Below are positions 15,498 through 28,858 of a stretch of DNA of 64,000 nucleotides, piece after piece (within the stretch, counting starts at the first letter, position 1; each line of letters opens with the position of its first letter). Both the position numbers and the translations under genes were made by a program. The stretch is taken from the NCBI GenBank assembly GCA_902766825.1, contig CACXFB010000038.1, forward strand, positions 2,903 through 66,902, written 5' to 3'. Source of the stretch: an uncultured Lachnospiraceae bacterium (GTDB taxonomy: Bacteria; Bacillota; Clostridia; Lachnospirales; Lachnospiraceae). The notes beneath the pieces were generated by a model, which searched no databases, was not told where the DNA came from, and saw only the letters and a list, made by a program, of their open reading frames with translations.

Positions 15498-16772
15498 TTA
15501 ATGACGTCCTCCTTTTTTTCCATGAGAGCTTACCATATCACTGTTAGGATTGTCAAATGATATTCCAAGTGCATCGGCCACAGCTTCCATAATACCATTA
15601 CTGCTGAACGTTGCACCGCTCACTGAATCAACATCCGTTGTCTGTCCGGATATTATTTCATTAATAACCGTTGTCTTGGCTTTATTGAAAAACTGATTGT
15701 CATCAGCATAATCGTCCACGGTAATGTCCGTTATCTTTCCATTCTTAACAGTCACCGTTACGGTTGTTGTTCCTCTGTAACCCTCACCACTTCCCTGATA
15801 TGTTCCGTCTTCTATCTGCAACAACGCTTCCTCTAAACTGTCTGCATCAGATTGTATCAACGAATTATCACTGCCGTTACCGATACTGCCTGTGCTGTTT
15901 GTATCTGCAGTACTGCCTGTCGTATTACTGCTTGAATCCACCAATGCATTTCCACCATAATACACACCAGCAATTATTGCAACCGACACAACTGCAGCCA
16001 CAATTCCTTTAGGGCTTGTATATAAGACATTAAGATTACATACATTTGCACATTTAAAACAATCTATACATTCTCCCGAAACAACTTCACCATGTTCATC
16101 CGCCTCCTTATTCACATCTATTCCCATCGGACATTTTTTACTGCACATGCCACATTTAACACAGCTTGTATTCTTTTTGACTCTGTATAATCTTGCTGAT
16201 GAAAGTACTCCAAATATACCACCTAGCGGACACAGATATCTGCAAAAGAATCGCTCTTTAAACATTGACATAACAATTATTATCAGTAATATCATTCCGC
16301 CGACTGATATCAGCGAACTTAAATCACTCCATCCTTTGTATGATGAATAGATACCAAATACATTCCACGGACTAAGTGTATTAAGTGAAAGATTCATTAT
16401 CCATGTAACAATAACTGCAACCAGAACAACGTATTTTCCCCACTTTAACATTTTATCTGTCTTAGGGCTTATCTTAATCTGCTTAATCTTAAGTTTTGCT
16501 GCTGCAAATGCCATCAGCTCCTGCATACTTCCAAAAGCGCACAGATATCCGCAAAAGAAACGTCCGACAACCATTGTTACCGGTATTACCGCAAGTAAAG
16601 TGATAACCGGTGTGAGCATAGCCGACGTAAAGAGTGCTCCAGCTATTGCGCCTTTTATTAATGTCTCGATTGCACTAAGAATTAATATAAACACTCCCGG
16701 CATTACTATAAATCCGGCAATCTGAATAACATGTCTTAATAACTGCACTACCGAAACTTTTCTTTTATCCAT
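15498..16772 (-). CDS. Membrane polyferredoxin (NapH/MauN-like 4Fe-4S) with C-terminal FMN-binding domain
   Basis: FFCGYLCAFG and FFCRYLCPLG membrane Cys motifs, CVKCGMCSKKCP and CIDCFKCANVC ferredoxin motifs, C-terminal FMN_bind-like VDSVSGATFSSNG. Start set at ATG 16772, downstream of AAGGAG. Confidence 0.8.
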   Translation of the reverse strand: MDKRKVSVVQLLRHVIQIAGFIVMPGVFILILSAIETLIKGAIAGALFTSAMLTPVITLLAVIPVTMVVGRFFCGYLCAFGSMQELMAFAAAKLKIKQIKISPKTDKMLKWGKYVVLVAVIVTWIMNLSLNTLSPWNVFGIYSSYKGWSDLSSLISVGGMILLIIIVMSMFKERFFCRYLCPLGGIFGVLSSARLYRVKKNTSCVKCGMCSKKCPMGIDVNKEADEHGEVVSGECIDCFKCANVCNLNVLYTSPKGIVAAVVSVAIIAGVYYGGNALVDSSSNTTGSTADTNSTGSIGNGSDNSLIQSDADSLEEALLQIEDGTYQGSGEGYRGTTTVTVTVKNGKITDITVDDYADDNQFFNKAKTTVINEIISGQTTDVDSVSGATFSSNGIMEAVADALGISFDNPNSDMVSSHGKKGGRH

Positions 16773-16896
16773 AATACTCACGCTCCTTCACTCTTAATTT
16801 ATAATTATAATTAAAGAGAATAAGGTGTTTATTCTGTGAATACTTTGGCAATAATCTGTGAAACTAACACCTTGCAAATCAAAGTATAATATGCTA

Positions 16897-17011
16897 ACAT
16901 CTAACTAAACAGAAAGCACCCACTCCAAAGTGGATGCTCCGAGTTTAGGTTCAAATGTCCTTATGGACACCGCCTATCCTGTGGTCAGACAGGATAGGCA
17001 TTTTTTATTTT
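16897..17011 (+). ncRNA. Candidate orphan small RNA on the plus strand
   Basis: TATAAT at 16885-16890, two internal hairpins (GCACCCACT/AGTGGATGC, GTCC/GGAC) and a strong plus-strand intrinsic terminator. No plus-strand ORF is present. Confidence 0.3.
16972..17011 (+). terminator. Plus-strand intrinsic terminator
   Basis: 11-bp perfect stem GCCTATCCTGT/ACAGGATAGGC, followed by ATTTTTTATTTT on the plus strand only. Confidence 0.6.
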
Positions 17012-17113: not shown

Positions 17114-18541
17114 CTATTGTTTAAGTCTTGAATCAATTGAATTTTCATATATACGGTAAAATGATACTCTCTCATACGGCGTTGCCATCTCGTTGTAACT
17201 ATCTATAATACCTTGATAATCAACGCTGCCGTCCATGTCCCCAACATAGATATTCACTCCGATTTTATCGTTCTTTATATACGCCTTTACATCCTTTATA
17301 CAATTGCTTTTACTTTTAATCAGTTCTTCAATCTTTGCTGCACTTACATTTTCACCGTTACTGGTAAGAAGCATTTTTTTCTTACGTCCTTTAACATATA
17401 ATTTGTTATCTTTGATAAAGCCCAGGTCACCTGTATGGAAATATCCGTTCTCATCAAACACTATTGCATTCAGACTTAGGTCTGTATATCCCTTAAACAC
17501 ATTATCCCCTTTTACTGTTATTTCCCCGATTCCGTCTTTGTCAGCATCTGCAATCTTAACATCAATGTCCTCATACAATTCGCCGGCACTTTCAAAGTCA
17601 TCACATCCCGGATACGCCAGTGTAAAGCTTGACGAACATTCAGTAAGTGCATACGTCTGCATAAGATTCATATTTTTATCCGCAAACATCTGCCTGTATT
17701 TCTTTTCAAGCGCAGCACCCCCGCATATGACACATCTGATTTTATTGCCAAATGCTTTATCTATGTTGTCTTTGTAACTGTCACATAAGTTCTTGATTAC
17801 TATCGGTACACAGCAAAAAATCGTAGGATTAACTTCAATAAGTTCTCTTGCTATGTTGCTTGTGGAACTCGAAATATATATTCTGTGACCTGTTATAAGT
17901 GAATACATAAAGTGACACACCGATGCGTATGTATGGTGCATAGGCAGGAACATATATGCAGTGTCATCATGACTTAGATGACATCTTTTTTGCAGGCTGT
18001 TAAGACCTGAAAAGATATTCCTAAGTGACAGCATTACCCCTTTACTCTTTCCCGTGGTGCCTGACGAAAACACTATCTTAGCCGTTTCATCGTATTCTTT
18101 AACAGGCATCCCAAGTAAAGATATTGAAAAATCCTCTTCCACATTCTCCATCTTTAAAACGTCGATTGCAATTTCTTTTCCAATCTCAGACGCAACATCT
18201 TTATACCTTTCTGAACAGATAAGAACATCGGCATCTATCTCTTTAATACTTTCAGTTATGTCTTCCTTGTTCCATTCCTTGCAAATGATACAGCTTTTGC
18301 CGACATAAAAAGTTATCGCAAGATCGCATGCCATAAGATTAGTGCTGTTCTCGCTTAACAAAATAATGCTTTTGTCTTTATAGCCACTCTCCAAAAGATA
18401 TTTTGCAATTCCAAGTGACTTCTCAATAAACCTCTTATAAGTTATACCCTCAAATCCGGCCGTCCCCTTTTTTTCAAAAATATATTCATCATACGACCAG
18501 TCATGATATATTTTTTTAATCTGCTTTTTTAAATCAATCAT
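17114..18541 (-). CDS. AMP-dependent synthetase/ligase (acyl-CoA or acyl-AMP ligase)
   Basis: 475 aa. FSSGTTGKSKGV adenylation P-loop, YALTE, TGDLG and GRKKKML motifs. Confidence 0.85.
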   Translation of the reverse strand: MIDLKKQIKKIYHDWSYDEYIFEKKGTAGFEGITYKRFIEKSLGIAKYLLESGYKDKSIILLSENSTNLMACDLAITFYVGKSCIICKEWNKEDITESIKEIDADVLICSERYKDVASEIGKEIAIDVLKMENVEEDFSISLLGMPVKEYDETAKIVFSSGTTGKSKGVMLSLRNIFSGLNSLQKRCHLSHDDTAYMFLPMHHTYASVCHFMYSLITGHRIYISSSTSNIARELIEVNPTIFCCVPIVIKNLCDSYKDNIDKAFGNKIRCVICGGAALEKKYRQMFADKNMNLMQTYALTECSSSFTLAYPGCDDFESAGELYEDIDVKIADADKDGIGEITVKGDNVFKGYTDLSLNAIVFDENGYFHTGDLGFIKDNKLYVKGRKKKMLLTSNGENVSAAKIEELIKSKSNCIKDVKAYIKNDKIGVNIYVGDMDGSVDYQGIIDSYNEMATPYERVSFYRIYENSIDSRLKQ

Positions 18542-19604
18542 TTAATTCTTTCTCCATCAGAACATACTCATATCTGTCCATTATCTTTTCCTCGCCATAA
18601 TTAATATTAATATTTCCGTCTCTTATAAGTGCACTTATGCTTGGCAGATTATTCTTCTTAAGCTCCCCGGCCACACAGTACGCTATCGCTTTTCCAAGAC
18701 CTTTGTGCTGCCTGTCGGCTCCAAGATACGGCATTACATATTCTCGAGGATGCTTTCTTGTCCACATAATCTTTAAAATATTAAGAGGTGTTAAGTGATA
18801 TACCCTGTTGTGATAATTAGGCACGCTGATACAGAAACCTACCGCTTTCCCCTTATAATATGCCATCTTTACCATATCCATATTTACAATCGATTTATAA
18901 GATGAAAACATGGCAATAAAATCATCTTTATCTAACATTTTGAACATAGGAAATGAACTGTAAAGGTCCATAATCAGGTAATAAACTTCTTCAATGCATT
19001 TATCAAAATTCTTCTTTTTCGGACTTATTATCTCATATCCTTTTTGCGCAAATTCATCAAAATGACTTGTAAACTTATCGTTATGATATGTCTCATCAAT
19101 CTTTTCAAAGATATTCGAAACATAGTGCTCTTTTACACCATATCCATTATCTAAAAACATCTTATAGTAATAATCTTTATTATATGGTTCTCCGGTATAA
19201 GGAAGACCGTCAAAAAGATTAATCTTTAAGCGATACTTGTTCCAAAATGATGCATCCACCGGACCTATAATTTTTTTATATCCGTGTTCTTTTGCAAATG
19301 AATCCGCATTTTCAAATATAAATTCAGCAACCTTGGCATCATCAATACATTCAAAAAAACCGATATAACATGCATCCTTATCTTCCGGGTACTGCGTTAT
19401 GGCAAATCTTCCTACAACCTCGTCCTGTCTGTACACCAGAAACTTGTCCAAAGTTATATATCTGCTAAGGAAATGAGTATCCGTAAGGAACTGTCTTATC
19501 GTGCCCTCATCCTCCATATTCGTTTTTGCAGAATACAGTTTTTTTGTTATATTTATAAAATCATCTATACACTTTTTATCACTGTCAAATTGTACAAGTC
19601 TCAT
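18534..19604 (-). CDS. GNAT-like acyltransferase (tentative)
   Basis: 356 aa. Only QHKGLGKAIAY resembles the GNAT CoA-binding loop. Overlaps both neighbouring genes. Confidence 0.4.
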   Translation of the reverse strand: MRLVQFDSDKKCIDDFINITKKLYSAKTNMEDEGTIRQFLTDTHFLSRYITLDKFLVYRQDEVVGRFAITQYPEDKDACYIGFFECIDDAKVAEFIFENADSFAKEHGYKKIIGPVDASFWNKYRLKINLFDGLPYTGEPYNKDYYYKMFLDNGYGVKEHYVSNIFEKIDETYHNDKFTSHFDEFAQKGYEIISPKKKNFDKCIEEVYYLIMDLYSSFPMFKMLDKDDFIAMFSSYKSIVNMDMVKMAYYKGKAVGFCISVPNYHNRVYHLTPLNILKIMWTRKHPREYVMPYLGADRQHKGLGKAIAYCVAGELKKNNLPSISALIRDGNININYGEEKIMDRYEYVLMEKELND

Positions 19605-21853
19605 TTATCGTCCCTTTTTCTTATTATCTCAATCTTTCCTTTGTATGCATCCATTCTAACGTAATCACCTGTTTTAATTATATCGGTGGCATTCTCCACG
19701 CCCACAATCGAAGGGATCTTAAGCTCCCTGGATATTATGGCTGTGTGGGATAAAATCGAGCCTTTTTCGGCGATTATTCCTCCTGCTGTGGCAAGAAGGA
19801 AAACCCATCCCGGGTCCGTCATTTTAGTAATTAAAATCTTGTCCTTTGTGTCGATTTTTTTATTCACATCCGTTATAACAAGGGCATGACCTTCTGCAAT
19901 TCCGTTAGAAGTAGGAGTTCCTTCAAGCAAGTCTTTGTCCACTGTCTTTTCTTTTTTGTTAATTATCCTGATACTCTTATCAAATTCTTCGCTTGCAAAT
20001 ACAAGTCTTGAATAATCAGGAAGCTTTGCATATGACTTATAATCTTTTTTTCTCTCATTAATAATCGTTTTAAAATTGGTATTATTATCATCAAAAATCT
20101 CTTCAACCTCAAGATAAAAAACATCTCTTACATCATCTAATCTTCCCTCTTTAACGAAGTTACGGGCCGCCTGCAGGAACATGCTCCTTACCATTCCGTA
20201 TATTCTGCTTCTGTTAAGTCTTGATATTTCCCTGTTTTTTATTCCTGTCATTGCACGCTTTAGAATAAACCTTGTTATAAAATCATCTTTAATTTTGCTG
20301 TCTGTATTCTTAGCTTCATTAAGATTTTTATATATCGTTTCAAGCTTATTCATATCGCTTCTGTACTGCTCTATCTTTTCCTCAAGAAGCTTTCTATTGG
20401 TTCTGAATGTCTCACTTTCGAGTTTTAACTCTTCAAGATTACGGTCGCCGTACAAAGAGATATAATTATCAAACATTGTATTAAATTCTTCATTTGATAC
20501 CTTGCCTTTTTTATATGCAAGCTCAACTAGCGCTTTAATAGGTTTAAGACTCTCGATATTACTTATTCCGCAAATGTAATCATTTACAGCTTCATCGGAC
20601 AGCTTTTTGCGTTTCAGCCTTTTCTTTAGCAGACCGGTAAAAATAAATGAGTACAAATCATTTATCAATGTAATGTCCCATATATCAAGAATCTCTTTTT
20701 TAATTTTTTCATACAGCTCTTTTACATCTGCCGTCGACATATTTTCATTAAAATGACTGTAAAAATATTCATTTATCTGAACAAACTGCCCGTTAAGCAT
20801 ATCCATGTTTTTTGAGACATTTTTCAACTCATGAAATGTATAAAAATATGTTTTTGTCTTCGTAAAGAACGGTATTTTAATCTTTGTATTGTCATAGGTT
20901 TTATTCTTCACTCCAAGCATATCCTGCCATATCGGAATGATAAATCTGTCAAACGGAAGGAACTTGATAAGCGTATACCAGTTAGAAATCTTATAGTAAA
21001 GTCTTGCATTCGCACTTCCGACCATGTTGTTAAAATTGTCATCATTTGCAGCCACAAGCTTCTCGTTTTTAGTCAGACGAAATGCTTCTTTTTTGAAAAC
21101 ATTACTGTACACAAATTTCACAAATGATATTGTTAACGGCAAACTTATTCTCGGATAACTCTCCACAATATTACTGTTATCAAGAATTACCGGATTATCT
21201 GTATTAAGCGTTGTTATCGGTCTTACCTGCAATATGTAAATGACATTGTCTTTAATTGCAAACTCAATATCAAGATACTCACCAAAGACATCTTTTATTT
21301 TCCCTGATGTATCTATAAGTTCTTCAACCAGGTCACTGCCCAGATATTCTTCACTGCCCTCATAATAATAAATTCTGTCTGTAAGATTGTAATAATATGT
21401 GCAGGCTTTAGTCCTGTCTTCAACAATGCCATCACCAAGTCCTTTTCCTGCCACTATTACAGATTCATTGATTATTCCCTGTGGATTTGAAGTAAAAAGA
21501 ACTCCGGAATAATCGCTTTCAACCATCTGCTGGATAATAACATCCATCATAAGTTCTTCCTCGGGAATTTTTCTTTCTTTCAAATAATCCACTACATTTT
21601 TATTGTGAACAGATTCAAAACACTCTTTTACTTTTTTCTCAATATCAAACACATCAACATTTAAGTACGTGTTAAACTGCCCCGCAAAGCTGTCACTTTG
21701 TGAGTCTTCAAGAGAACAGGAGCTTCTTATGGCATACTTTCCCCTAAAGGGTGCTGTATCTATGTCAGCGTCTCTTTCATCCCATTTAACCACCGTAAAT
21801 GGCGGCACGTTGAATCCATTATCTTTTAGTAGTTTTAAATTCTCTGCCTTCAT
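19601..21853 (-). CDS. PEP-utilising-type phosphotransferase (PPDK_N ATP-grasp plus His swivel domain)
   Basis: 750 aa. N-terminal IRSSCSLEDSQSDSFAGQFNTYLNV. C-terminal mobile domain ITKMTDPGWVFLLATAGGIIAEKGSILSHTAIISRELKIPSIVGV with the phospho-His. Confidence 0.8.
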   Translation of the reverse strand: MKAENLKLLKDNGFNVPPFTVVKWDERDADIDTAPFRGKYAIRSSCSLEDSQSDSFAGQFNTYLNVDVFDIEKKVKECFESVHNKNVVDYLKERKIPEEELMMDVIIQQMVESDYSGVLFTSNPQGIINESVIVAGKGLGDGIVEDRTKACTYYYNLTDRIYYYEGSEEYLGSDLVEELIDTSGKIKDVFGEYLDIEFAIKDNVIYILQVRPITTLNTDNPVILDNSNIVESYPRISLPLTISFVKFVYSNVFKKEAFRLTKNEKLVAANDDNFNNMVGSANARLYYKISNWYTLIKFLPFDRFIIPIWQDMLGVKNKTYDNTKIKIPFFTKTKTYFYTFHELKNVSKNMDMLNGQFVQINEYFYSHFNENMSTADVKELYEKIKKEILDIWDITLINDLYSFIFTGLLKKRLKRKKLSDEAVNDYICGISNIESLKPIKALVELAYKKGKVSNEEFNTMFDNYISLYGDRNLEELKLESETFRTNRKLLEEKIEQYRSDMNKLETIYKNLNEAKNTDSKIKDDFITRFILKRAMTGIKNREISRLNRSRIYGMVRSMFLQAARNFVKEGRLDDVRDVFYLEVEEIFDDNNTNFKTIINERKKDYKSYAKLPDYSRLVFASEEFDKSIRIINKKEKTVDKDLLEGTPTSNGIAEGHALVITDVNKKIDTKDKILITKMTDPGWVFLLATAGGIIAEKGSILSHTAIISRELKIPSIVGVENATDIIKTGDYVRMDAYKGKIEIIRKRDDK

Positions 21854-22752
21854 TAAATCTTTCCAACCAATAAATAAACTGCAACAGTAAGTAACATTGT
21901 TGATTCCTGAAGATAAGTGTATATCTCAACTTTTGATACAATCTTATACTTTGTAGGATCTTTTGAAAATTCAATAAACTTATATGTCATCCACGACACG
22001 AGTACCGCAAGCACTGCAACAGATATCTTTGACAGATTCCATACAAGAATAAAGTTTGTCACGATATCCATTAACGTCACTATAAGCACAAAACGAGTTG
22101 CTCTTTTATAGCCAAACAGCTTCGAATATGTTGTGTAATCATTTTCATCCTGCGGTGCCTTTATCTTTCTTGAAACTTCCCATATAAGCGCCGGAAAATA
22201 AAGTGTAAACAAAGTCATAATCGTAGTCAGGTTAAGAAAACTTAAGTCATACTTTATTACGGTAAAGCTTATGATATAAAGGTTTACAAACATCTGGACC
22301 GGATTATGCGTAACAAGCGCCTTAGGAAGAGACGGCTGAATCTTAGCTTTCTGGAAAAACCATTTACTCATCAGATAACCGTAGATGTATAGCACAACAA
22401 AAAATATTCTGTTAGGCATAAATATCATATTAAGCACAAGTGCGATTATCTCAAATATAAGGCACGAAACAAATATGTCTTTTCTGGTTGTTGCACCTCG
22501 CTGCAGAGGTCTGTCCGGAAACAATTTAAAATCCGTCTCATAATCCTTTAAATCATCTGCAACCCTAAGCCACAAAAGGAATGCAAAAACAGTGTAACAG
22601 CCTATAAGCTCCTGGTATGTGATATCAAATTTAGTAACTCCGCGATTAAGTAAAACTATAAAGTATATCTCCCCGAACACAATAAGACCAAGAATCAGTC
22701 TTGCAAAAATCGGGTATCTTTCATGGTAATAAACATATAATCTTTTTAACAT
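21853..22752 (-). CDS. UbiA-superfamily prenyltransferase
   Basis: 299 aa, about 8 TM. First Asp-rich motif ADDLKDYETDFKLFPDRPLQRG and second QDENDYTTYSKLFG. Confidence 0.7.
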   Translation of the reverse strand: MLKRLYVYYHERYPIFARLILGLIVFGEIYFIVLLNRGVTKFDITYQELIGCYTVFAFLLWLRVADDLKDYETDFKLFPDRPLQRGATTRKDIFVSCLIFEIIALVLNMIFMPNRIFFVVLYIYGYLMSKWFFQKAKIQPSLPKALVTHNPVQMFVNLYIISFTVIKYDLSFLNLTTIMTLFTLYFPALIWEVSRKIKAPQDENDYTTYSKLFGYKRATRFVLIVTLMDIVTNFILVWNLSKISVAVLAVLVSWMTYKFIEFSKDPTKYKIVSKVEIYTYLQESTMLLTVAVYLLVGKI

Positions 22753-23579
22753 ATTTTTTCTCCAACCCTATCTCCTATGTTCACTTTACATTCAATGTTT
22801 CGCAAGCTGTATTGTATAATGTCATCATCAACTTTTATACCGCTTGCAATAATGATAACCGTGCTTGCTCCCGGCAGAAAATATCCTTTTTCCTGCCCTC
22901 TTTCAAATTCTTTGTTATCATGGTTAATAATCCTGCCGACTAACATCGCACCGACTTCCATATAGATTACTTTTCCAAAATGTACGGTATCAAGGACACT
23001 GTATGAACGCTCATTCTCTTTGTAAATAGCATATTCACCGGAGCTGTCGCTTACCGTGTGAAGTCTTCCTTTGATTCTTACCGACCTTTGTACTTGGCCA
23101 TCATCAATGTGATAAAATCTGTGACAGTCATCAAGTGATAATCTGTAAACAAACATGTAACTGTCAGTAAGATTATAATCATCGGATTCTAAAAGTTCAC
23201 TTACACTGTACACCGTATTTTTAACTTTAACTCTTAAGTCATCATCTATCTTGTATACAAGCAGTTTGCCATCACACGGACTGATAAAACCCTCTTTATC
23301 AAAACCTATTTTCTTATATTTTCTGATAAAAAAATCATTGAAAGATTTATAATCCTTCTCTTCATACAAGGACATATCAACCGCATTTTCTTTGATAAAG
23401 CTTTCTATCTTTTTTTTACTAAAAGAAGTGCCGTTATGCAGTCCGTATAAAAATGATACAAACTTTGAGGTCGCAATCCTTGTAAGCAGCCTGCTTCCAT
23501 AAATCTTTGTCAAAGAATCCTTTCCAAAATGCTTTACTTCTTCTATGCTTTTTAGTTTTCTGTTGTAAACCTTAGTCAT
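22746..23579 (-). CDS. Phosphatidylserine decarboxylase-family (pyruvoyl) protein
   Basis: 277 aa. RLSLDDCHRFYHIDDG (PSD DYHRxH-type motif) and GYFLPGASTVIII (self-cleavage G-S-T region, here GAST). Confidence 0.75.
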   Translation of the reverse strand: MTKVYNRKLKSIEEVKHFGKDSLTKIYGSRLLTRIATSKFVSFLYGLHNGTSFSKKKIESFIKENAVDMSLYEEKDYKSFNDFFIRKYKKIGFDKEGFISPCDGKLLVYKIDDDLRVKVKNTVYSVSELLESDDYNLTDSYMFVYRLSLDDCHRFYHIDDGQVQRSVRIKGRLHTVSDSSGEYAIYKENERSYSVLDTVHFGKVIYMEVGAMLVGRIINHDNKEFERGQEKGYFLPGASTVIIIASGIKVDDDIIQYSLRNIECKVNIGDRVGEKIC

Positions 23580-23580
23580 A

Positions 23581-26088
23581 TTATTTACCCTTTTTTACTT
23601 CTCCGGTTGTTCCGTTAATCGTAATAATCTCACCGTCTTTTATCTCACTCATAATATTTGTACAGCTTACAATCGCAGGAATACCATACTCTCTTGATAC
23701 AATCGCAGCGTGACAAAGTATTCCTCCAAACTCCGTAACAATACCCGAAAGAATTGCAAACTTAGGTGTCCATCCTGTATCCGTAAATTTTGTAACAAGA
23801 ATGTCCCCCTCCTGCAATCTGTCTATTTCGTCAAATGATTCAATAACCCTTGCCACACCTGTTACTACACCATTGTTAGCACCAAGTCCTCTCATCGAAC
23901 TTGTTATTTTCACCTTCTCGCCGCCAAATACACTACCTATCTCGTTCTCACTCATATAGTTTCTGTAGGCATTATAGTAAGCTTTGTTTTTAACTATTAA
24001 TTCATTCAAATCTTCCCCTGTTAATTTTCCGTCAATGTAGTCCCACAGATTGCCCACCTTTAAGAACCAGATATCATCTTCATGACTGATTACATTATCC
24101 TTCACAAGCTTTTTTGCATAACGTATCGTATAAATTCGGATGATGTAATATAGTCTTGTGGATAAATCCCTAAACTCCTCTCTCCACCATAACATCTTTC
24201 TTATCTTGGTAACTTTCTTCTCGATCTTCTCATAATCTTTTTTACTAAGTCTTTGTTTTATTTCATCAAGTTTGCCTCGGTATTTTTCCTGTCCGCGCGC
24301 CTGATCTTTCTTAGGCGAATATTCATCATCAAGCATAACCAGATCTCTTATATTAGTTACAATCGGTGTAATATCTTCATAATAGCAAGGATATGTAACA
24401 TCGAGTTCCTTGTCGGAATGGTATCCGTACTTGCTGATAACATCTTCAACCTTATCAAAGCAATTAACTGATTTATCTATAGTGAATTCGTTCACTATAT
24501 CCTCTATTTTTGAATTTTTCCAATACTCAAGGGCTTTTTTATCATTTCTTATAAGTCTTGAAGCATCCCACATCTCATAGAACGGAAGCAGATGTGATAT
24601 ATCTTCAATATTGCTTATAAGCGTTAAATAATCTTCCTCGGTTATATGTTTTAAAAGGCTGTCTTTATTAAGCGACTGATGTATCGTATTGATGAAAATC
24701 TGCCAGAAATACGTTGTCTCACTAAACAGATAATCATCATGCGTCAATGTTTTAAACATTTCTTCGATGTTATCAACAGCGTCGGTATCATGTAACTTTT
24801 TATAGTTATTGTACTTGTCAAGCAAGCCATTTTTCAGATTCTGTGCATCAGCTTCTCGTTCTTTAACAATCTTACTCTGGGCTATAGCCATCTTTGTAAT
24901 ATCAACAATACTTTTTAAGGTAACACCTGTTGTCTGTCCGTCACCCGTATAGGTCGGTGTTATTCCGTATTCGTTATCAAACTCTCTCTCCTTATATCCG
25001 ACAACTTTACTCATCGCTTTTTTTACGGCAGATAGATTCCAGTAACATCTTCCAAAGAACATGTCTCCTAGCTTTTTAGGAAGTTCCTTTTCCTTTAAAA
25101 TCTTAGAATCCACTATAAATTTCTTAAGCGAATGTTCCCATATGTATTCATACAGACTCCACATATATGGGGTGCAAACAGACGCTGATACGCCGCCGTC
25201 TTTAAAGTCAGCCGTCGTCCATATATAGTCGTAGCCCTGATACTTTATCTTAGTTACCTTACGGCTTTGAAGTATATACAACTCATTATTGTATATTGCA
25301 AACTCTATATCGCACGGATATCCAAAGTAAGACATTATCTCAAAAAATGTTGGTGCGATTCTCTCTAAAACTGGTTTGTCCAAAAATTTATTATCATCCG
25401 AATAATCAAATGTGTGTTCAAACCAATTGTAATAATACTGTTCCGGTTTGTTCTGACCGCTTACAATATTCTCACCTAAACCTTCACCTACCTCTATAAG
25501 CATCGTCTTATCATTTCCCGTAACAGGATCAATTGTAAAACATATTCCCGAGTATTCACTTGGAACCATTTCCTGCACGATAACACTCATTGCAAGTTCT
25601 TCAAATACATTATCAAGATTACTCATGTTCCCAATCATGTAGCTAAGAACCGTTGTGGAAAACATGGATTTATAACATTCAATAATCTTTACCTGTACAT
25701 CCTCTACCTTTGTGTTCAGGAAACTCTTGTACTGTCCGGCAAATGAAAAACTGTCAAGATCCTCTTTTGTTCCGCTGCTTCTTACGGCATAAAGTTTGTC
25801 TTTCTTTAACAATTCATTTAATGTACTTTTAGTAGTGTCGCTTAATTTAAAACCATCAAAAAGTCCGACGATCTCTTCACTGATTTTTTCAATGTTATCT
25901 TTTGAAAGCAGCTTTATCAGCTTAGTTATCTTTGTATCTAATTTATTAAACTTAACTTCTTCAATATAGGTATCACTATCCAGTGCAAACCCGTCCGGCA
26001 CATTAAATCCGGCCTTTTTCATCTCCATCAGGAAACGTGCTTTGTTACCTGTTTTTTTATTATCCTTATCATCAAATCTTACAATCAT
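23581..26088 (-). CDS. PEP-utilising-type phosphotransferase, RPH/YvkC-like length
   Basis: 835 aa. VRSSGTKEDLDSFSFAGQYKSFLN ATP-grasp motif. C-terminal LVTKFTDTGWTPKFAILSGIVTEFGGILCHAAIVSREYGIPAIV. Confidence 0.8.
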   Translation of the reverse strand: MIVRFDDKDNKKTGNKARFLMEMKKAGFNVPDGFALDSDTYIEEVKFNKLDTKITKLIKLLSKDNIEKISEEIVGLFDGFKLSDTTKSTLNELLKKDKLYAVRSSGTKEDLDSFSFAGQYKSFLNTKVEDVQVKIIECYKSMFSTTVLSYMIGNMSNLDNVFEELAMSVIVQEMVPSEYSGICFTIDPVTGNDKTMLIEVGEGLGENIVSGQNKPEQYYYNWFEHTFDYSDDNKFLDKPVLERIAPTFFEIMSYFGYPCDIEFAIYNNELYILQSRKVTKIKYQGYDYIWTTADFKDGGVSASVCTPYMWSLYEYIWEHSLKKFIVDSKILKEKELPKKLGDMFFGRCYWNLSAVKKAMSKVVGYKEREFDNEYGITPTYTGDGQTTGVTLKSIVDITKMAIAQSKIVKEREADAQNLKNGLLDKYNNYKKLHDTDAVDNIEEMFKTLTHDDYLFSETTYFWQIFINTIHQSLNKDSLLKHITEEDYLTLISNIEDISHLLPFYEMWDASRLIRNDKKALEYWKNSKIEDIVNEFTIDKSVNCFDKVEDVISKYGYHSDKELDVTYPCYYEDITPIVTNIRDLVMLDDEYSPKKDQARGQEKYRGKLDEIKQRLSKKDYEKIEKKVTKIRKMLWWREEFRDLSTRLYYIIRIYTIRYAKKLVKDNVISHEDDIWFLKVGNLWDYIDGKLTGEDLNELIVKNKAYYNAYRNYMSENEIGSVFGGEKVKITSSMRGLGANNGVVTGVARVIESFDEIDRLQEGDILVTKFTDTGWTPKFAILSGIVTEFGGILCHAAIVSREYGIPAIVSCTNIMSEIKDGEIITINGTTGEVKKGK

Positions 26089-26096
26089 AACAACCT

Positions 26097-26702
26097 CTAA
26101 AACATATTTTTTCTTACGTGCATAAAATATAACAACATGTTAATTAAAATGTGGGTTCCTGCTCCGACAAGCACGAACAAAATATATATTCCAATTCCAA
26201 CCGGGTAAAATGCCCCTACAACTAGCGCCATTCCAAATATGGAATCTGCCTGATCCAAAAACACAAAAAACATCTTTGCCTTGCTGTCAGTTGTTTTACC
26301 TGATTCAATATCCAGTCTTCTCTTAATAAAACTGTTAGGGAGCTCAAAAAGTGCATAAGCAAATCCAAGCAACGCACCCACTATAACATTATACACCACA
26401 TTATTATCATGTGTAAGATAAAAATAGTTAAGATGTTCAAGGTCGCTTACCTTCCATATCACCCCGAAAACCACCGAAAAAATAATGTTAAAAAAAATGT
26501 ATCCAAAAAAGCCCTTCCACGTCTTATTATCCCCAAAAATTCTTTTATTGTCCCTTAAAACCTTATAGTTATCCATAGGCCTCTTAAGTGCCGCAAAACT
26601 GCCCGACTTACAAAAAAGAGAGTTGATAATTCCCGCTAAAATCGCCGACAGCAACGTTACGTATAATCTTAAAATCGTAGTCATAATATTACTTTTCTCC
26701 AA
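26097..26702 (-). CDS. CarS-like (CDP-archaeol synthase family, ex-DUF46) membrane cytidylyltransferase
   Basis: 201 aa, about 5 TM. GDNKTWKGFFG, SFIKRRL and FLDQADS match the CarS/CdsA-type signature as I recall it. Confidence 0.6.
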   Translation of the reverse strand: MEKSNIMTTILRLYVTLLSAILAGIINSLFCKSGSFAALKRPMDNYKVLRDNKRIFGDNKTWKGFFGYIFFNIIFSVVFGVIWKVSDLEHLNYFYLTHDNNVVYNVIVGALLGFAYALFELPNSFIKRRLDIESGKTTDSKAKMFFVFLDQADSIFGMALVVGAFYPVGIGIYILFVLVGAGTHILINMLLYFMHVRKNMF

Positions 26703-26774: not shown

Positions 26775-27278
26775 CTAGTTATTTATTTTCACATACTTAA
26801 TAAGCATCATCTTATCATTTACCTTTATATCCTCGCCCTCTGCGACAAACCCCACTTTTTCGTACAAATGACAATTACCCTTTTCCTGCTTAATTGTAGC
26901 CAGATGCCACTCAATCGTATCAGAATATATATCAAAAAGCTTTTCTATAACACAAGTGGCAATGCCCCTGTTTTGAAATTTTGGAACAACATAAATGGGC
27001 GATATCCAGTTGTAATTCTTATGTACCGTACTGCCATTGTGCCACTTAACCCTGACACCGCCAACCGGCTGTCCTCCTAACAGGATGAAATAATAATCAG
27101 AGTTAACATCTGTTATTTTTCCTTCAACTGTTTCAACACTTTCCTTTGCCGGACTTATGTCATCATCATGATACTTTTCATATAACGGTAAAAACGCCTC
27201 CACCTGCAGTTTATGCAGGCATCCGGCTTCTTCTTTATTAACCGGTTTTAATTCAATTAAATCATTTATGTTACTCAA
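26775..27278 (-). CDS. GNAT-family N-acetyltransferase
   Basis: VVPKFQNRGIATCVIEKL acetyl-CoA loop. Probable TTG start at 27278 after AAGGAGG; the ORF track extends to 27302. Confidence 0.8.
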   Translation of the reverse strand: MSNINDLIELKPVNKEEAGCLHKLQVEAFLPLYEKYHDDDISPAKESVETVEGKITDVNSDYYFILLGGQPVGGVRVKWHNGSTVHKNYNWISPIYVVPKFQNRGIATCVIEKLFDIYSDTIEWHLATIKQEKGNCHLYEKVGFVAEGEDIKVNDKMMLIKYVKINN

Positions 27279-27407
27279 AGCCACCCTCCTTTTCACGTCC
27301 AACTACACGAAAAGCGCATAAGACATCTATGTCCAATGCGCTTTTTTTACTCACTCAATGTCATTTAAAATAAAAATAACACTTGTGGTTAGTTATGTCA
27401 ATTCTCT

Positions 27408-27432
27408 GAAACGAGGGACGGTTCCTCGTTTC
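27408..27432. repeat. REP-like hairpin, copy A
   Basis: GAAACGAGG-GACGGTT-CCTCGTTTC, a 9-bp stem around the conserved GACGGTT loop. Confidence 0.8.
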
Positions 27433-27524
27433 ATTCACCAATAACATTTAGTAATGATTTCGTGTAATCAATATAACCTGAACTTTTTACTCTGTCTTTT
27501 AGAATATCATTTACAGTAGCATTA

Positions 27525-28036: not shown

Positions 28037-28066
28037 CCTTCAATCCTCCTATTAAATGATACTTTT

Positions 28067-28858
28067 TTATATTTCATAGCCATATTTTTTTATTACTGCA
28101 TATAAATCTTCTATATCACGATAATCACAATATGCATCATAAAAATCTTTCACAGCCATTGAATATCCACCCACCGTAGCTGCTACAATTGTTACGATAG
28201 TTGCTGGCGGACAAGTAGCCGCAGTAACACCAATCAAGGTACAAATCAGTAACACTGTATCTGAACTTCCCGCTTCAATTGCTCCTTGTGTGATATTTCT
28301 ATTGCAGCTTTTAATTGCACTTACATATTTATCACATTTATCCTGTTTTTTTGATGATAAATCCCAATATTTTATCCTATACTTTGCTTTACAACCTATT
28401 TGCATATAATCATTGCCATAATCAGAGGCACCAAGCTGATACCAAAAGCGATCTTTAACACTCCATTTTTCATATCTTTTCTTTCCCCATGAATACTGTG
28501 ATGTGACATTGTCATTATCATCTGCATCAATACTAATCTGTATACTATTTTCCTCTGTTATGTATTTATCAAATCCTAAAATATTTTTTCCTTGATAATC
28601 ATAATTAGTGATAATTAATTCTTCATATTCATTATCAACAACAATCTCTATTTTATCCTTGCTTTCACAATTTGTTGTAACGACCTTTCTATAATCATCA
28701 TAATCATATGTCTTAATAACATACTTAGTACCATTCTCGTCATATACAACTGTTCCATAATTATCATCCGCATTTGCAACAATCGCAGTTCTTCCTACCG
28801 CTATCAATACAAATGTCAACGCCAATACCAAACTTACTACTCTTCTCAATCTTTTCAT
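28067..28858 (-). CDS. Secreted protein with C-terminal hydrophobic hairpin, unknown function
   Basis: 263 aa. Signal peptide (LVLALTFVLIAVGRTAIVANA), D/N/Y-rich middle, C-terminal TVLLICTLIGVTAATCPPATIVTIVAATVGG. RBS AAAGGAG. Confidence 0.6.
   Translation of the reverse strand: MKRLRRVVSLVLALTFVLIAVGRTAIVANADDNYGTVVYDENGTKYVIKTYDYDDYRKVVTTNCESKDKIEIVVDNEYEELIITNYDYQGKNILGFDKYITEENSIQISIDADDNDNVTSQYSWGKKRYEKWSVKDRFWYQLGASDYGNDYMQIGCKAKYRIKYWDLSSKKQDKCDKYVSAIKSCNRNITQGAIEAGSSDTVLLICTLIGVTAATCPPATIVTIVAATVGGYSMAVKDFYDAYCDYRDIEDLYAVIKKYGYEI

What the first reader, a model, noticed from the sequence alone, without database searches (positions are those of the whole stretch)
17114..26702. Seven-gene coupled operon combining archaeal-type lipid enzymes (CarS-like, UbiA, PSD-like) with two PpsA/RPH-type His-swivel phosphotransferases, a GNAT-like protein and an acyl-AMP ligase
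Gene junctions are 8-nt gap, 1-nt gap, 7-nt overlap, 1-nt overlap, 4-nt overlap and 8-nt overlap, so this is one translationally coupled unit of 9.6 kb.

Motifs read from the translations:
- CarS/CdsA-like: GDNKTWKG, SFIKRR, LDQAD.
- UbiA Asp-rich boxes.
- PSD: DCHRFYH plus GAST.
- Two ATP-grasp plus phospho-His swivel enzymes: SSxxEDxxxxSFAGQ and GGxxxHxAIxSRE.
- Adenylation P-loop: SSGTTGKSKG.

The CarS, UbiA-type ether-lipid prenyltransferase and serine-headgroup decarboxylase trio echoes the archaeal phospholipid pathway. However, G1P dehydrogenase, GGGP synthase, a prenyl-diphosphate synthase and any CDP-alcohol phosphatidyltransferase are absent from the window.

Enzymes with this ATP-grasp plus His-swivel architecture phosphorylate water or small molecules (PEP synthase, rifampin phosphotransferase, flavonoid phosphate synthetase-type YvkC). 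Two of them in a lipid context is not a pathway I know.

Working hypothesis (inference): synthesis of a prenylated, phospho-linked amino-alcohol lipid. Its amine would be produced by the PSD-like enzyme and then N-acylated by the ligase/GNAT pair.
Basis: partly seen in the sequence, partly recalled or inferred. Interest (0 to 1): 0.8.

Follow-up and report, generated by a model that had tools for sequence, protein, structure and literature searches.

The report
Uncharacterised archaeal-like lipid operon in Clostridia
A tightly packed seven-gene operon, conserved in gene order across more than a hundred gut and rumen Firmicutes loci, joins archaeal-style membrane-lipid enzymes to two rifampin-phosphotransferase-like kinases and an acyl-CoA ligase/tandem-GNAT pair, and probably makes a membrane lipid that I could not find described anywhere.

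Summary
Seven minus-strand genes (26702/26684..17114) have exactly the stated gaps and overlaps, and all seven family assignments hold.

New findings:
- The unit is conserved in the same order in 115 loci of at least 9 kb, mostly Lachnospiraceae. No other neighbouring gene recurs in more than 15 of them.
- 87 of the 115 loci carry an eighth gene between the first kinase and the PSD gene. The window's species has lost it.
- The UbiA-like protein is the most conserved gene (median 72% identity). Its model is closest to archaeal DGGGP synthase.
- The "GNAT-like" protein is a tandem GNAT with a CoA-binding motif.
- The two kinases share only their ATP-grasp and His-swivel domains. Their central domains differ, which suggests different substrates.
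- UbiA-kinase2-GNAT-ligase also occurs as a free-standing four-gene operon.

Best reading (inferred): the operon builds a non-canonical, probably prenyl-ether, phospho-serine/ethanolamine membrane lipid through a CDP-activated intermediate. The kinases would make lipid or prenyl phosphates, and the ligase/GNAT pair would add an acyl group.

Nine literature searches found no description of this operon. Substrates and product are unknown. I rate it moderately to highly interesting.

The parts
26097..26702 (-). g1: CarS-like CTP:lipid-phosphate cytidylyltransferase, an integral membrane protein. The probable true start is ATG 26684 (195 aa).
   Evidence: Pfam PF01864 scores 63 bits against a cut-off of 22. 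It aligns to Aeropyrum pernix CarS 5guf, including GDxKTxxG and SF[IV]KRR. Those motifs and LDQxD are at least 95% conserved in 56 orthologues. Hydropathy gives five hydrophobic segments. The start choice rests.
23581..26088 (-). g2 (Pps1): Rph-type ATP-grasp plus central domain plus phospho-His swivel dikinase. It has no PEP/pyruvate-binding domain.
   Evidence: PPDK_N scores 167 bits and the PEP-utilizers mobile domain 84 bits, with no PF02896 hit. All NCBIfam scores are far below their cut-offs; Rph scores 281 against 999. The catalytic His motif CHAAIVSRE is invariant in 96 sequences, and the central domain is conserved within the Pps1 group.
22746..23579 (-). g3: phosphatidylserine-decarboxylase-family proenzyme (pyruvoyl type).
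   Evidence: PF02666 scores 130 bits. NF001941 scores 207 bits against a cut-off of 371. The motifs PxDG, DxHR, NER, EVGAxLVG and G-x-S-T are at least 95% conserved in 61 orthologues.
21853..22752 (-). g4: divergent UbiA-superfamily membrane prenyltransferase (NCBIfam PRK13592 subfamily). It is the most conserved gene of the operon.
   Evidence: NF010118 scores 401 bits against 443. Pfam UbiA scores 24.8 against 34.2. The AF2 model (pLDDT 70) best matches archaeal DGGGP synthase 7bpu/6m31 at TM 0.64-0.72. The first Asp-rich motif DDxxDxxxD...RPL is invariant. Median identity across 69 species is 72%.
19601..21853 (-). g5 (Pps2): second Rph-type dikinase. Its central domain differs from that of g2, and its N-terminus is shortened.
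   Evidence: PPDK_N scores 127 bits and PEP-utilizers 77 bits. NF004882 scores 793 bits against 850. The best PDB match is Listeria rifampin phosphotransferase 5fbs/5hv1. Against g2 it is 40% identical in the ATP-grasp domain and 28% in the swivel domain, and the central domains cannot be aligned. The His motif SHTAIISRE is invariant in 104 sequences.
18534..19604 (-). g6: tandem-GNAT acyl-CoA-dependent acyltransferase.
   Evidence: The AF2 model has pLDDT 92. The top Foldseek PDB hits are all tandem GNATs: 2wpw, 5kf1, 7q3a and MshD 2c27, at TM about 0.55. G302-L303-G304 in R-x-x-G-L-G-K-A is invariant. No NCBIfam family matches, and Pfam GNAT scores only 18 bits.
17114..18541 (-). g7: ANL-superfamily adenylate-forming acyl-CoA ligase.
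   Evidence: PF00501 scores 161 bits. The best NCBIfam match is menE at 180 bits against 330. The nearest PDB entries are oxalyl-CoA synthetase, MenE, FadD13 and malonyl-CoA synthetase. It is the least conserved gene (median 38% identity) and is absent from some operons.
16913..16999 (-). Two terminator-like hairpins downstream of g7, marking the probable 3' end of the transcription unit.
   Evidence: Found by the consensus scan and read directly from the sequence. The number of such sites in the region is no higher than in shuffled sequence, so this is weak evidence.

Best explanation
The operon encodes a dedicated pathway for a non-canonical membrane aminophospholipid.

Shown here:
- There are three integral-membrane enzymes (CarS-like, UbiA-like and, in most relatives, a serine-type CDP-alcohol phosphatidyltransferase) plus a PSD-family decarboxylase.
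- There are two Rph-type dikinases with intact catalytic His motifs and different central domains.
- There is a tandem GNAT with a CoA-binding motif.
- There is an ANL ligase.
- All of these are co-inherited in a fixed order.

Inferred mechanism:
1. The UbiA/DGGGPS-like enzyme attaches an allylic prenyl chain from a prenyl diphosphate, by an ether bond, to a hydroxyl of a phosphorylated lipid backbone.
2. The CarS-like enzyme converts the resulting lipid phosphomonoester plus CTP into a CDP-lipid.
3. The Pss-like transferase exchanges CMP for L-serine. In this window's species that enzyme must be encoded elsewhere.
4. The PSD-like enzyme decarboxylates the product to a phosphoethanolamine head group.
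5. The two dikinases (ATP to AMP plus Pi, via a phospho-His) phosphorylate lipid or prenyl hydroxyls. They would thereby make the phosphate esters that UbiA (Pps2) and CarS (Pps1) need, replacing the missing G1P-dehydrogenase/GGGP-synthase entry steps.
6. The ligase makes an acyl-CoA. The tandem GNAT transfers that acyl group either to the backbone, as the first (acyl) chain, or to the head-group amine.
For: - Conservation: the genes occur in the same order in 69 GTDB species and in 115 loci of at least 9 kb. No ninth gene family is found in more than 15 loci.
- Head-group logic: CarS-like, a Pss-like gene in 87 of 115 loci whose best NCBIfam hits are archaetidylserine synthase and pssA, and a PSD with an intact catalytic and processing motif.
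- UbiA-like: its nearest structures are archaeal DGGGP synthases, and its only other NCBIfam hits are DGGGPS-type models. More distant members of the subfamily pass the Pfam UbiA threshold.
- Membrane location: g1, g4 and the Pss-like protein are polytopic, while the other proteins are soluble.
- Kinases: they have the Rph architecture without the PEP/pyruvate domain. The catalytic His is invariant in both groups, and the central domains are conserved within each group but not between them. All characterised Rph-type enzymes retrieved in the literature search phosphorylate a substrate oxygen.
- GNAT: it carries a CoA motif and usually sits next to a CoA-ligase-type ANL.
- Modularity: CarS-Pps1-(Pss)-PSD and UbiA-Pps2-GNAT-ANL behave as two separable modules.
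Against: - No substrate is known for any of the seven enzymes.
- No G1P dehydrogenase, GGGP synthase or prenyl-diphosphate synthase is linked to the operon in any locus.
- The UbiA-like protein is very divergent. A family profile finds no PDB sequence match, and the second Asp-rich motif is non-canonical (WExxRKI...ExDY). The model has pLDDT of only 70, and ApUbiA scores nearly as well as DGGPS, so the acceptor could be aromatic or a polyprenyl phosphate.
- No Rph-type dikinase has ever been shown to act on a lipid.
- The window's own operon lacks the Pss-like gene, and some relatives lack PSD or the ligase.
- Assigning a specific substrate to Pps1 and to Pps2 is guesswork.
- Module B occurs without module A nearby, so the two modules may not serve one linear pathway.
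Confidence: 0.45

Rival explanations
1. Salvage pathway. The two dikinases, with the CarS-like enzyme possibly acting as a CTP-dependent kinase, re-activate free isoprenoid alcohols that are abundant in gut and rumen contents. Candidates are phytol from chlorophyll, geranylgeraniol, or archaeol core lipids from methanogens. The alcohols would be converted to prenyl (di)phosphates or archaetidic-acid-like lipids. UbiA and the CDP/Ser/Etn head-group enzymes would then build them into bacterial membrane lipids.
For: - Hits come overwhelmingly from rumen and hindgut MAGs and metagenomes.
- There is no linked de novo backbone enzyme or prenyl-diphosphate synthase.
- Rph-type enzymes phosphorylate hydroxyls of bulky hydrophobic molecules.
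- The gene order CarS-Pps1-Pss-PSD reads naturally as alcohol, then phosphate, then CDP, then P-Ser, then P-Etn.
- In distant relatives the UbiA-like domain is fused to an N-terminal polytopic domain with a D-T-x-A-A-x-V-G-x-R-x-G ... K-[ST]-x-E-G-S motif. From memory this resembles CTP-dependent polyprenol/phytol kinases.
Against: - The kinase-like reading of the fused domain was not confirmed. Pfam, NCBIfam, a PDB profile search and hhalign against the g1 family all gave nothing.
- The operon also occurs in oral Johnsonella and in a Fusobacterium MAG, so it is not restricted to herbivores.
- The sampling is heavily biased towards rumen MAGs.
- The idea does not explain the GNAT/ligase pair.
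Confidence: 0.2
2. Prenylated aromatic or other small-molecule product. In this reading UbiA is an aromatic prenyltransferase. The ANL is an aryl-CoA ligase whose product the GNAT couples to an amine. One or both dikinases phosphorylate a phenolic hydroxyl, as phenylphosphate synthase and HpeHI/MarK do. The CarS/Pss/PSD genes then add a phospho-linked head group or serve a separate purpose.
For: - Classic UbiA enzymes prenylate aromatic acids, and ApUbiA is almost as good a structural match as DGGGPS.
- The nearest relatives of g7 include MenE, 4-coumarate-CoA ligase and a benzoate-CoA ligase chimera.
- Several characterised members of this kinase family act on phenols.
- Module B exists on its own.
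Against: - The top fold hits and the only secondary NCBIfam hits are DGGGPS-type.
- CarS, Pss and PSD families are known only from lipid head-group chemistry, and they are co-inherited with module B in most loci.
- No aromatic-ring biosynthesis or tailoring genes are linked.
Confidence: 0.12
3. Polyprenyl-phosphate-linked carrier. The UbiA-like enzyme acts as decaprenyl-phosphate phosphoribosyltransferase does, or the CarS-like enzyme activates a polyprenyl phosphate. The result would be a polyprenyl-P-serine/ethanolamine (or N-acylated) donor used to decorate the cell envelope, not a bulk membrane lipid.
For: - The membrane-bound PRTase 8j8j/8j8k is among the fold hits.
- The head-group genes are dispensable in some lineages, which fits an accessory decoration.
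Against: - The PRTase match is weaker (TM 0.51) than DGGGPS.
- No glycosyltransferase, flippase or phosphoethanolamine transferase is linked in 115 loci.
Confidence: 0.1
4. Nothing special: ordinary phosphatidylethanolamine synthesis genes that happen to lie beside PEP synthases or rifampin-resistance kinases and a generic acetyltransferase and fatty-acid ligase.
For: NCBI-style models would name g2 and g5 'phosphoenolpyruvate synthase' and g3 'phosphatidylserine decarboxylase'.
Against: - g2 and g5 lack the PEP/pyruvate-binding domain and score far below the PpsA and Rph cut-offs.
- The cytidylyltransferase is CarS-type, not CdsA (PF01148 scores 19.8, below its cut-off of 24).
- Gene order and overlapping junctions are conserved across families and even phyla.
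- All scores to the housekeeping equivalog models are below their cut-offs.
Confidence: 0.03

Closest known systems
Archaeal polar-lipid pathway: DGGGP synthase (UbiA family), then CarS, then archaetidylserine synthase, then archaetidylserine decarboxylase
   Same: The same four enzyme families are present together. The window has three of them, and most orthologous operons have all four. g1 shares the CarS motifs. The g4 model is closest to the DGGGPS structures. The Pss-like protein's best model is archaetidylserine synthase.
   Different: - The host is a bacterium of the Clostridia.
- No G1P dehydrogenase or GGGP synthase is linked.
- All scores fall below the archaeal equivalog cut-offs (70 against 148 for CarS; 79 against 240 for the serine synthase).
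- Two Rph-type dikinases, a tandem GNAT and an ANL ligase are integral parts of the operon, and the archaeal pathway has no counterpart for them.
Bacterial archaeal-type lipid genes: Ca. Cloacimonetes/FCB-group GGGPS plus DGGGPS (Villanueva et al. 2021, PMC7852524) and Bacillus PcrB
   Same: These are bacteria that carry homologues of archaeal ether-lipid enzymes. As here, G1P dehydrogenase is absent in the Cloacimonetes case.
   Different: The Cloacimonetes MAGs have GGGPS and DGGGPS but explicitly lack CarS. The present operon is the reverse: it has CarS-like, Pss-like and PSD-like genes plus a DGGGPS-like UbiA, but no GGGPS. It also adds the kinases and the acylation pair.
Rifampin phosphotransferase (Rph), PigC/HapC, HpeHI/MarK and phenylphosphate synthase: ATP-grasp plus His-swivel water dikinases
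   Same: g2 and g5 have the three-part architecture of ATP-grasp, substrate domain and phospho-His swivel. The best PDB hit is Listeria Rph.
   Different: - Scores are far below the Rph and PigC equivalog cut-offs.
- The central domains are specific to each of the two groups.
- Two copies are embedded in a membrane-lipid operon.
- No member of this family was found in the literature acting on a lipid.
Bacterial CdsA-PssA-Psd phosphatidylethanolamine pathway
   Same: It has the same chemical logic: a CDP-activated lipid, then the serine ester, then decarboxylation to ethanolamine. The same Pss and PSD superfamilies are used.
   Different: The cytidylyltransferase is CarS-type rather than CdsA. 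The PSD and Pss-like proteins score below the housekeeping equivalog cut-offs. These genes are co-inherited with a UbiA prenyltransferase.
ANL ligase plus GNAT N-acyltransferase pairs in lipid synthesis (for example bacterial ceramide synthase systems and N-acyl amide synthases; recalled from memory, not tested)
   Same: A CoA- or AMP-forming ligase sits next to a GNAT-fold acyltransferase in a lipid context.
   Different: g6 is a tandem GNAT with no sequence-level family. No serine palmitoyltransferase or acyl carrier protein is linked.

Membership tests
CDP-archaeol synthase (CarS, PF01864) | HMM match above the curated threshold | tested here: met
   PF01864 scores 63 bits against a cut-off of 22. 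The NCBIfam CarS equivalog NF003114 scores only 70 bits against 148. So g1 belongs to the family but is not an equivalog.
CDP-archaeol synthase (CarS, PF01864) | Conserved CTP/lipid-phosphate site motifs (GDxKTxEG, SFxKRR, DQxD) and about five transmembrane helices | tested here: met
   g1 aligns to ApCarS 5guf over GDNKTWKG and SFIKRR. These motifs and LDQAD are at least 95% conserved in 56 orthologues. Hydropathy gives five hydrophobic segments.
CDP-archaeol synthase (CarS, PF01864) | CTP plus unsaturated archaetidic acid gives CDP-archaeol | not testable with these tools
   This needs an enzyme assay.
UbiA prenyltransferase superfamily / DGGGP synthase | Pfam PF01040 match above the gathering score | tested here: not met
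   g4 scores 24.8 bits against 34.2. A family profile finds no PDB sequence. More distant members of the same subfamily do pass, at 36.6 and 41.1 bits.
UbiA prenyltransferase superfamily / DGGGP synthase | UbiA fold (all-helical, polytopic) | tested here: met
   The AF2 model has pLDDT 70 and pTM 0.74. The top Foldseek hits are DGGGPS 7bpu and 6m31 (TM 0.64-0.72), followed by ApUbiA and AfUbiA.
UbiA prenyltransferase superfamily / DGGGP synthase | Two Asp-rich motifs (NDxxDxxxD and DxxxD) | tested here: inconclusive
   The first motif, D66-D67-x-x-D70-x-x-x-D74 followed by R81-P-L, is invariant or nearly so. At the second position the family has W-E192-x-x-R195-K196-I ... E203-x-D205-Y instead of a canonical DxxxD.
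UbiA prenyltransferase superfamily / DGGGP synthase | Pathway partners GGGP synthase and G1P dehydrogenase | tested here: not met
   No recurrent neighbour beyond the eight genes was found in 115 loci. They were not seen in the ten large window ORFs scanned. Whole genomes were not available.
Phosphatidylserine decarboxylase (PF02666) | HMM match, plus the catalytic Asp/His/Ser residues and the GST-type self-cleavage site | tested here: met
   The HMM match is 130 bits. P-x-D-G, D-x-H-R and G-x-S-T (GAST in the window) are at least 95% conserved. The equivalog cut-off is not reached (207 against 371).
PEP synthase / pyruvate phosphate dikinase | C-terminal PEP/pyruvate-binding TIM-barrel domain (PF02896) | tested here: not met
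   Only PPDK_N and the mobile His domain are found in g2 and g5. TIGR01418 scores 247 and 181 bits against a cut-off of 740. They are therefore not PEP synthases, whatever the automatic names say.
Rifampin phosphotransferase (Rph) | ATP-grasp, substrate domain and His-swivel architecture with the catalytic His | tested here: met
   The best PDB matches are 5fbs and 5hv1. The His motif is invariant in 96 and 104 sequences.
Rifampin phosphotransferase (Rph) | Equivalog-level similarity, implying rifampin as substrate | tested here: not met
   NF041857 scores 281 bits (g2) and 205 bits (g5) against a cut-off of 999. The central domains are distinct.
GNAT acyltransferases | GNAT fold and the acyl-CoA pyrophosphate-binding motif (Q/R-x-x-G-x-G/A) | tested here: met
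   The Pfam score is below cut-off (18.2 against 20.7). However, the AF2 model (pLDDT 92) is a tandem GNAT, and R298-x-x-x-G302-L-G304-K-A is invariant.
ANL adenylate-forming enzymes | PF00501 match and the P-loop (A3) motif | tested here: met
   The match is 161 bits, and SSGTTGKSKG is present. Substrate class is undetermined: the best models are menE, long-chain FACS and malonyl-CoA synthase, all below their cut-offs.
CDP-alcohol phosphatidyltransferase (serine type) as part of the operon | Presence of a PF01066 gene with the DG..AR..G...D...D motif | tested here: not met
   It is absent from the 64-kb window (tblastn). It is present between Pps1 and PSD in 87 of 115 related loci. There PF01066 scores 48-61 bits, and the best NCBIfam hits are archaetidylserine synthase and pssA.

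The most novel reading that the evidence does not exclude
Widespread gut and rumen Clostridia make an archaeal-type, isoprenoid-ether, CDP-activated serine/ethanolamine phospholipid by a route that bypasses G1P dehydrogenase and GGGP synthase. Two Rph-type water dikinases would phosphorylate lipid or prenyl alcohols, possibly diet-derived or methanogen-derived ones such as phytol or archaeol. An acyl-CoA ligase/tandem-GNAT pair would add an acyl chain. The result would be a hybrid acyl/prenyl lipid that straddles the bacterial-archaeal 'lipid divide', and a first lipid substrate for this kinase family.
Probability: 0.25. Interest if true: 0.85.

Novelty: new variant of a known kind. Interest (0 to 1): 0.68.

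Why it matters
If the reading is right, abundant gut and rumen Lachnospiraceae carry a dedicated eight-gene pathway for a membrane lipid built partly with archaeal-type enzymes: a CarS-like cytidylyltransferase, a DGGGPS-like prenyltransferase, and serine synthase and decarboxylase homologues.

That would bear on three questions:
- The lipid divide. The best-studied bacterial example of archaeal-type lipid genes, Ca. Cloacimonetes, lacks CarS (PMC7852524), whereas this operon has it.
- The kinase family. It would give the Rph/PigC dikinase family its first lipid substrates.
- Host and biomarker relevance. It would define a new lipid class that could act on the host immune system or serve as a biomarker.

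The system is directly testable. Cultured carriers of the full operon exist: Butyrivibrio sp. XPD2006 and Lachnospiraceae bacterium P6A3 and AC2028.

It also corrects misleading automatic names. g2 and g5 are not PEP synthases.

Tried and rejected
- Literature. Nine full-text searches combined CarS, UbiA, PSD, PEP synthase, Rph, GNAT, CDP-alcohol transferase, Lachnospiraceae, Butyrivibrio and ether/isoprenoid lipids. None found a paper on this operon. The lipocone paper, an archaeal-lipid review and Coleman 2019 do not cover it.
- PDB sequence searches. g4 found nothing, alone or as a family profile. g6 found nothing meaningful.
- Pss-like gene elsewhere in the window. tblastn found none.
- Small GNAT g0 as an operon member. 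It is not conserved outside the species. It is not homologous to the small GNAT that occupies the same position in nine Lachnospiraceae loci.
- Extra ORFs inside some operons (L027, L029, L073). They are not shared and look like insertions.
- Flanking recurrent genes. These are glycoside hydrolases, an aldo-keto reductase, a Na/H exchanger, a MerR regulator and an SDR. They are lineage-specific synteny with no functional link.
- N-terminal domain fused to UbiA-like proteins in distant relatives. I suspected a polyprenol-kinase- or CdsA-like domain from its motifs. Pfam, NCBIfam, a PDB profile search and hhalign against the g1, Pss and UbiA families gave no support. It remains only a lead.
- Metagenome scan. 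It returned only close relatives (65-86% identity), so no distant genomic contexts were obtained.
- Promoter scan. The number of sites was no higher than in shuffled sequence, so no promoter is claimed.
- Regulatory RNA. Rfam finds none at the operon.
- Exact-sequence look-up. It gave no organism names. Taxonomy was instead inferred from MetE relatives.

Full report
**1. Observation**

The region 17114-26702 holds seven ORFs, all on the minus strand:

| Gene | Coordinates | Length |
|---|---|---|
| g1 | 26702..26097 | 201 aa |
| g2 | 26088..23581 | 835 aa |
| g3 | 23579..22746 | 277 aa |
| g4 | 22752..21853 | 299 aa |
| g5 | 21853..19601 | 750 aa |
| g6 | 19604..18534 | 356 aa |
| g7 | 18541..17114 | 475 aa |

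- Independent gene calls on six metagenome contigs of the same species (96-100% protein identity) give the same junctions.
- Each internal start codon is preceded at 7-10 nt by a GGAG/GAGG/AAGGG-type stretch lying inside the upstream gene.
- g1 more probably starts at ATG 26684 (195 aa, GGAGA upstream) than at TTG 26702.
- Two terminator-like hairpins lie 115-200 nt after g7.
- The promoter scan found no more sites than in shuffled sequence, so I claim no promoter.
- Base composition of the operon does not differ from the rest of the window.

**2. What the seven proteins are**

- **g1** is a CarS-family protein.
  - PF01864 scores 63 bits against a cut-off of 22.
  - It aligns to Aeropyrum CarS (5guf) over the GDxKTxxG and SFxKRR motifs.
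  - Those motifs and LDQxD are at least 95% conserved among 56 orthologues.
  - It has five hydrophobic segments.
  - It is not an equivalog of archaeal CarS (70 bits against 148).
- **g2 and g5** have an ATP-grasp (PPDK_N) domain and a phospho-His swivel domain but no PEP/pyruvate-binding domain.
  - For g5, the only one of the two searched against PDB sequences, the closest solved structure is Listeria rifampin phosphotransferase.
  - They score far below the cut-offs of the Rph, PigC and PEP-synthase models.
  - The two are 40% identical in the ATP-grasp domain and 28% in the swivel domain. Their central, substrate-binding regions do not align.
  - Within each orthologous group the catalytic His motif is invariant, and the central domain carries long conserved stretches.
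  - In the window's clade g5 is about 50 residues shorter at the N-terminus than other Pps2 proteins.
- **g3** is a PSD-family proenzyme (130 bits). Its PxDG, DxHR and G-x-S-T motifs are conserved.
- **g4** is a very divergent UbiA-superfamily protein.
  - Pfam scores it below threshold (24.8 against 34.2), and it finds no PDB sequence even as a profile.
  - It scores 401 bits against NCBIfam PRK13592 "prenyltransferase", whose cut-off is 443.
  - The AF2 model (pLDDT 70) best matches the archaeal DGGGP synthases 7bpu and 6m31 (TM 0.64-0.72, 17% identity). ApUbiA, AfUbiA and a membrane phosphoribosyltransferase follow.
  - The first Asp-rich motif is intact. The second is replaced by a family signature, WExxRKI...ExDYxTYS.
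  - A search of 1.84 billion representative proteins found 690 relatives at E ≤ 1e-10. Some of them pass the Pfam UbiA threshold.
- **g6** has no sequence family, but its model is confident (pLDDT 92) and is a tandem GNAT.
  - The top hits are 2wpw, 5kf1, 7q3a and MshD, at TM about 0.55. FemX- and MprF-type folds score lower.
  - The second GNAT domain keeps an invariant R-x-x-x-G-L-G-K-A CoA-binding motif.
- **g7** is an ANL adenylate-forming ligase (161 bits).
  - Its nearest relatives are MenE, oxalyl- and malonyl-CoA synthetases and FadD13.
  - Its substrate class cannot be called.

**3. Conservation and the missing gene**

A scan of one genome per GTDB species, using g4 as probe, found 69 loci. 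Most are rumen or gut Lachnospiraceae, including these cultured isolates:
- Butyrivibrio sp. INlla14
- Butyrivibrio sp. XPD2006
- Lachnospiraceae bacterium P6A3
- Lachnospiraceae bacterium AC2028

The remaining hits are all MAGs: Acetatifactor, Johnsonella, Oscillospiraceae/Acutalibacteraceae, Bacilli and a Fusobacterium. tblastn shows g1 to g7 in the same order almost everywhere. A metagenome scan added 482 more matching stretches.

I clustered all ORFs of the 115 loci of at least 9 kb. This gave exactly eight recurrent families:

| Family | Loci (of 115) |
|---|---|
| Kinases | 115 (215 copies) |
| UbiA | 112 |
| PSD | 105 |
| Tandem GNAT | 100 |
| CarS | 94 |
| CDP-alcohol phosphatidyltransferase | 87 |
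| ANL ligase | 82 |
| Next most frequent neighbour | 15 |

- The eighth family encodes a protein of about 205 aa that sits between Pps1 and PSD. It has the DG..AR..G...D...D motif and 6-7 transmembrane segments. Its best NCBIfam hits are archaetidylserine synthase and pssA.
- This gene is absent from the whole 64-kb window. The seven-gene layout without it is the second most common architecture: 11 of 46 fully covered GTDB loci, against 20 with all eight genes.
- The window's closest relatives (L007-L011) still have it, so the loss is recent. A Pss elsewhere in the genome presumably compensates; this is an inference.
- Median identity to the window proteins is UbiA 72%, Pps1 57%, CarS 56%, GNAT 53%, Pps2 51%, PSD 44% and ANL 38%.

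**4. Modularity**

- L026 and L050 lack Pps1.
- In L058 and L074 the Pss-PSD pair sits at the 3' end.
- L021 lacks both Pss and PSD.
- Several loci lack the ligase.
- L044, L066 and L068 have only UbiA-Pps2-GNAT-ANL, flanked by unrelated genes: a GH92 glycosidase, a class IV aminotransferase and a carboxyltransferase.

The system therefore behaves as two modules. Module A is CarS-Pps1-(Pss)-PSD and module B is UbiA-Pps2-tandem GNAT-ANL. The GNAT/ligase pair is tied genetically to UbiA and Pps2, not to PSD.

**5. Mechanism (inferred)**

- Module A reads as a linear head-group pathway acting on a lipid that is not ordinary phosphatidic acid:
  - lipid-OH to lipid-phosphate (Pps1)
  - to CDP-lipid (CarS-like)
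  - to lipid-P-serine (Pss-like)
  - to lipid-P-ethanolamine (PSD-like)
- Module B would make the lipid core. The DGGGPS-like UbiA adds a prenyl ether to a phosphorylated backbone. Pps2 supplies a phosphate ester, either on the backbone or on the prenyl donor. The ligase and tandem GNAT add an acyl chain, either to the backbone or to the head-group amine.
- What is shown: the enzyme families, intact catalytic motifs, membrane location, and co-inheritance.
- What is not shown: any substrate, the order of the steps, or the product.
- Every characterised Rph-type dikinase retrieved in the literature search phosphorylates a substrate oxygen of a non-lipid molecule: rifampin, MBC, hydroxyphenylethanones, other aromatic monomers, or glucan.

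**6. Rival readings**

- **Salvage of exogenous prenols or archaeol.** This is attractive given the rumen and gut bias and the absence of de novo entry enzymes.
  - It gains a lead from fusion proteins in distant relatives (P0492, P0523, P0549). In these a polytopic N-terminal domain with a DTxAAxVGxRxG...K[ST]xEGS motif precedes the UbiA-like domain.
  - From memory that motif resembles CTP-dependent polyprenol kinases or CdsA. No tool confirmed this.
- **A prenylated aromatic product.** UbiA would act as an aromatic prenyltransferase, the ANL as an aryl-CoA ligase, and the dikinases as phenol kinases.
- **A polyprenyl-phosphate-linked carrier** for decorating the cell envelope.
- **The trivial reading** (housekeeping PE synthesis genes plus PEP synthases) is excluded by the domain content and the conservation.

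**7. Comparison with known systems, and novelty**

- The closest system is the archaeal DGGGPS-CarS-serine synthase-decarboxylase pathway. This operon shares its four enzyme families. It fails the membership tests for equivalog-level similarity and for the G1PDH/GGGPS partners.
- In the bacterial case studied by Villanueva et al., GGGPS and DGGGPS are present but CarS was not detected (PMC7852524). The present operon is complementary to that case.
- Nine full-text literature searches found no description of this operon.
- I classify it as a new variant of a known kind: a CDP-dependent, archaeal-type phospholipid head-group pathway with an unprecedented addition of two Rph-type dikinases and an acyl-CoA ligase/tandem-GNAT pair.

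**8. Host and context**

- MetE in the window is 78-80% identical to proteins from Eubacterium sp. and Lachnospiraceae MAGs. The host is therefore an uncultured member of the Clostridia.
- The window is an ordinary chromosomal segment, with an SbcC-like gene, MetE and polyamine genes. Almost all genes are on one strand, and nothing else lipid-related was found among the ORFs scanned.

Noticed in passing
window 29064-29180 (-): A c-di-GMP-I riboswitch (RF01051, 55 bits against a gathering score of 35) lies just upstream of the 263-aa ORF 28858..28067. That ORF has a signal-peptide-like N-terminus. The riboswitch is about 2.4 kb upstream of the operon and separated from it by other ORFs, so I do not count it as part of the operon.
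   Followed up: partly
window 26775-27302 (-); L022:4816-5295: A small single-domain GNAT (g0, 175 aa) sits 72-90 nt upstream of g1. A different small GNAT occupies the same position in nine Lachnospiraceae loci. The two are not detectably homologous (no BLASTP alignment), and g0 is not conserved outside the species. This may be coincidence or analogous recruitment. The best promoter-like site in the region (27401..27373) lies upstream of g0, so g0 may be co-transcribed with the operon in this species.
   Followed up: partly
P0492, P0523, P0549 (distant relatives of g4, 552-590 aa): In these proteins the UbiA-like domain is fused to an N-terminal polytopic domain of about 250 aa with conserved DTxAAxVGxRxG, K[ST]xEGSLAFF and GxDN motifs. 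It looks to me like a CdsA- or polyprenol-kinase-type domain. However, Pfam, NCBIfam, a PDB profile search and hhalign against the g1 family gave no hit.
   Followed up: partly
window 19601-21853 (-): Pps2 of the window and its closest relatives (L007-L011) is about 750 aa, against about 790-800 aa in other lineages. It matches the PPDK_N and NF004882 models only from about model position 100. Part of the N-terminal ATP-grasp subdomain is therefore missing in this clade.
   Followed up: partly
window 27303-28066, compared with L001:1201-2639 and L002:1132-2570: There is strain-level variation upstream of the operon. Some contigs of the same species carry a 75-aa ORF plus a 404-aa S8 peptidase between the 263-aa ORF and g0. 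The window has only a 95-aa ORF there, as does L006.
   Followed up: no
window 51718-59493 (-): A polyamine gene cluster is present. It includes agmatine deiminase (489 bits, above cut-off), a carboxynorspermidine-synthase-like protein (403 bits, below its cut-off of 800) and a PLP-dependent basic-amino-acid decarboxylase-like protein. It is unrelated to the operon.
   Followed up: no
window 15498-16781 (-) and the neighbouring small ORF: A NapH/NosR-like polyferredoxin membrane protein with a C-terminal FMN-binding domain lies directly downstream of the operon. In the metagenome contigs of the same species a 58-aa DUF6472 gene follows it. It is conserved only within the species.
   Followed up: no
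whole window: 32 of the 33 ORFs of at least 250 aa are on the minus strand. GC skew is negative in every 2-kb bin. This fits a single replichore with strong co-orientation of genes, as is typical of Firmicutes. No tRNA genes were found.
   Followed up: no
L027:14952-16343, L029:5354-6805, L073:3557-4960: An ORF of about 470 aa with a C-terminal coiled-coil repeat (NKELTDT repeats) is inserted between Pps2 and the tandem GNAT in three or four Lachnospiraceae operons. It is probably a mobile-element insertion that the operon tolerates.
   Followed up: no
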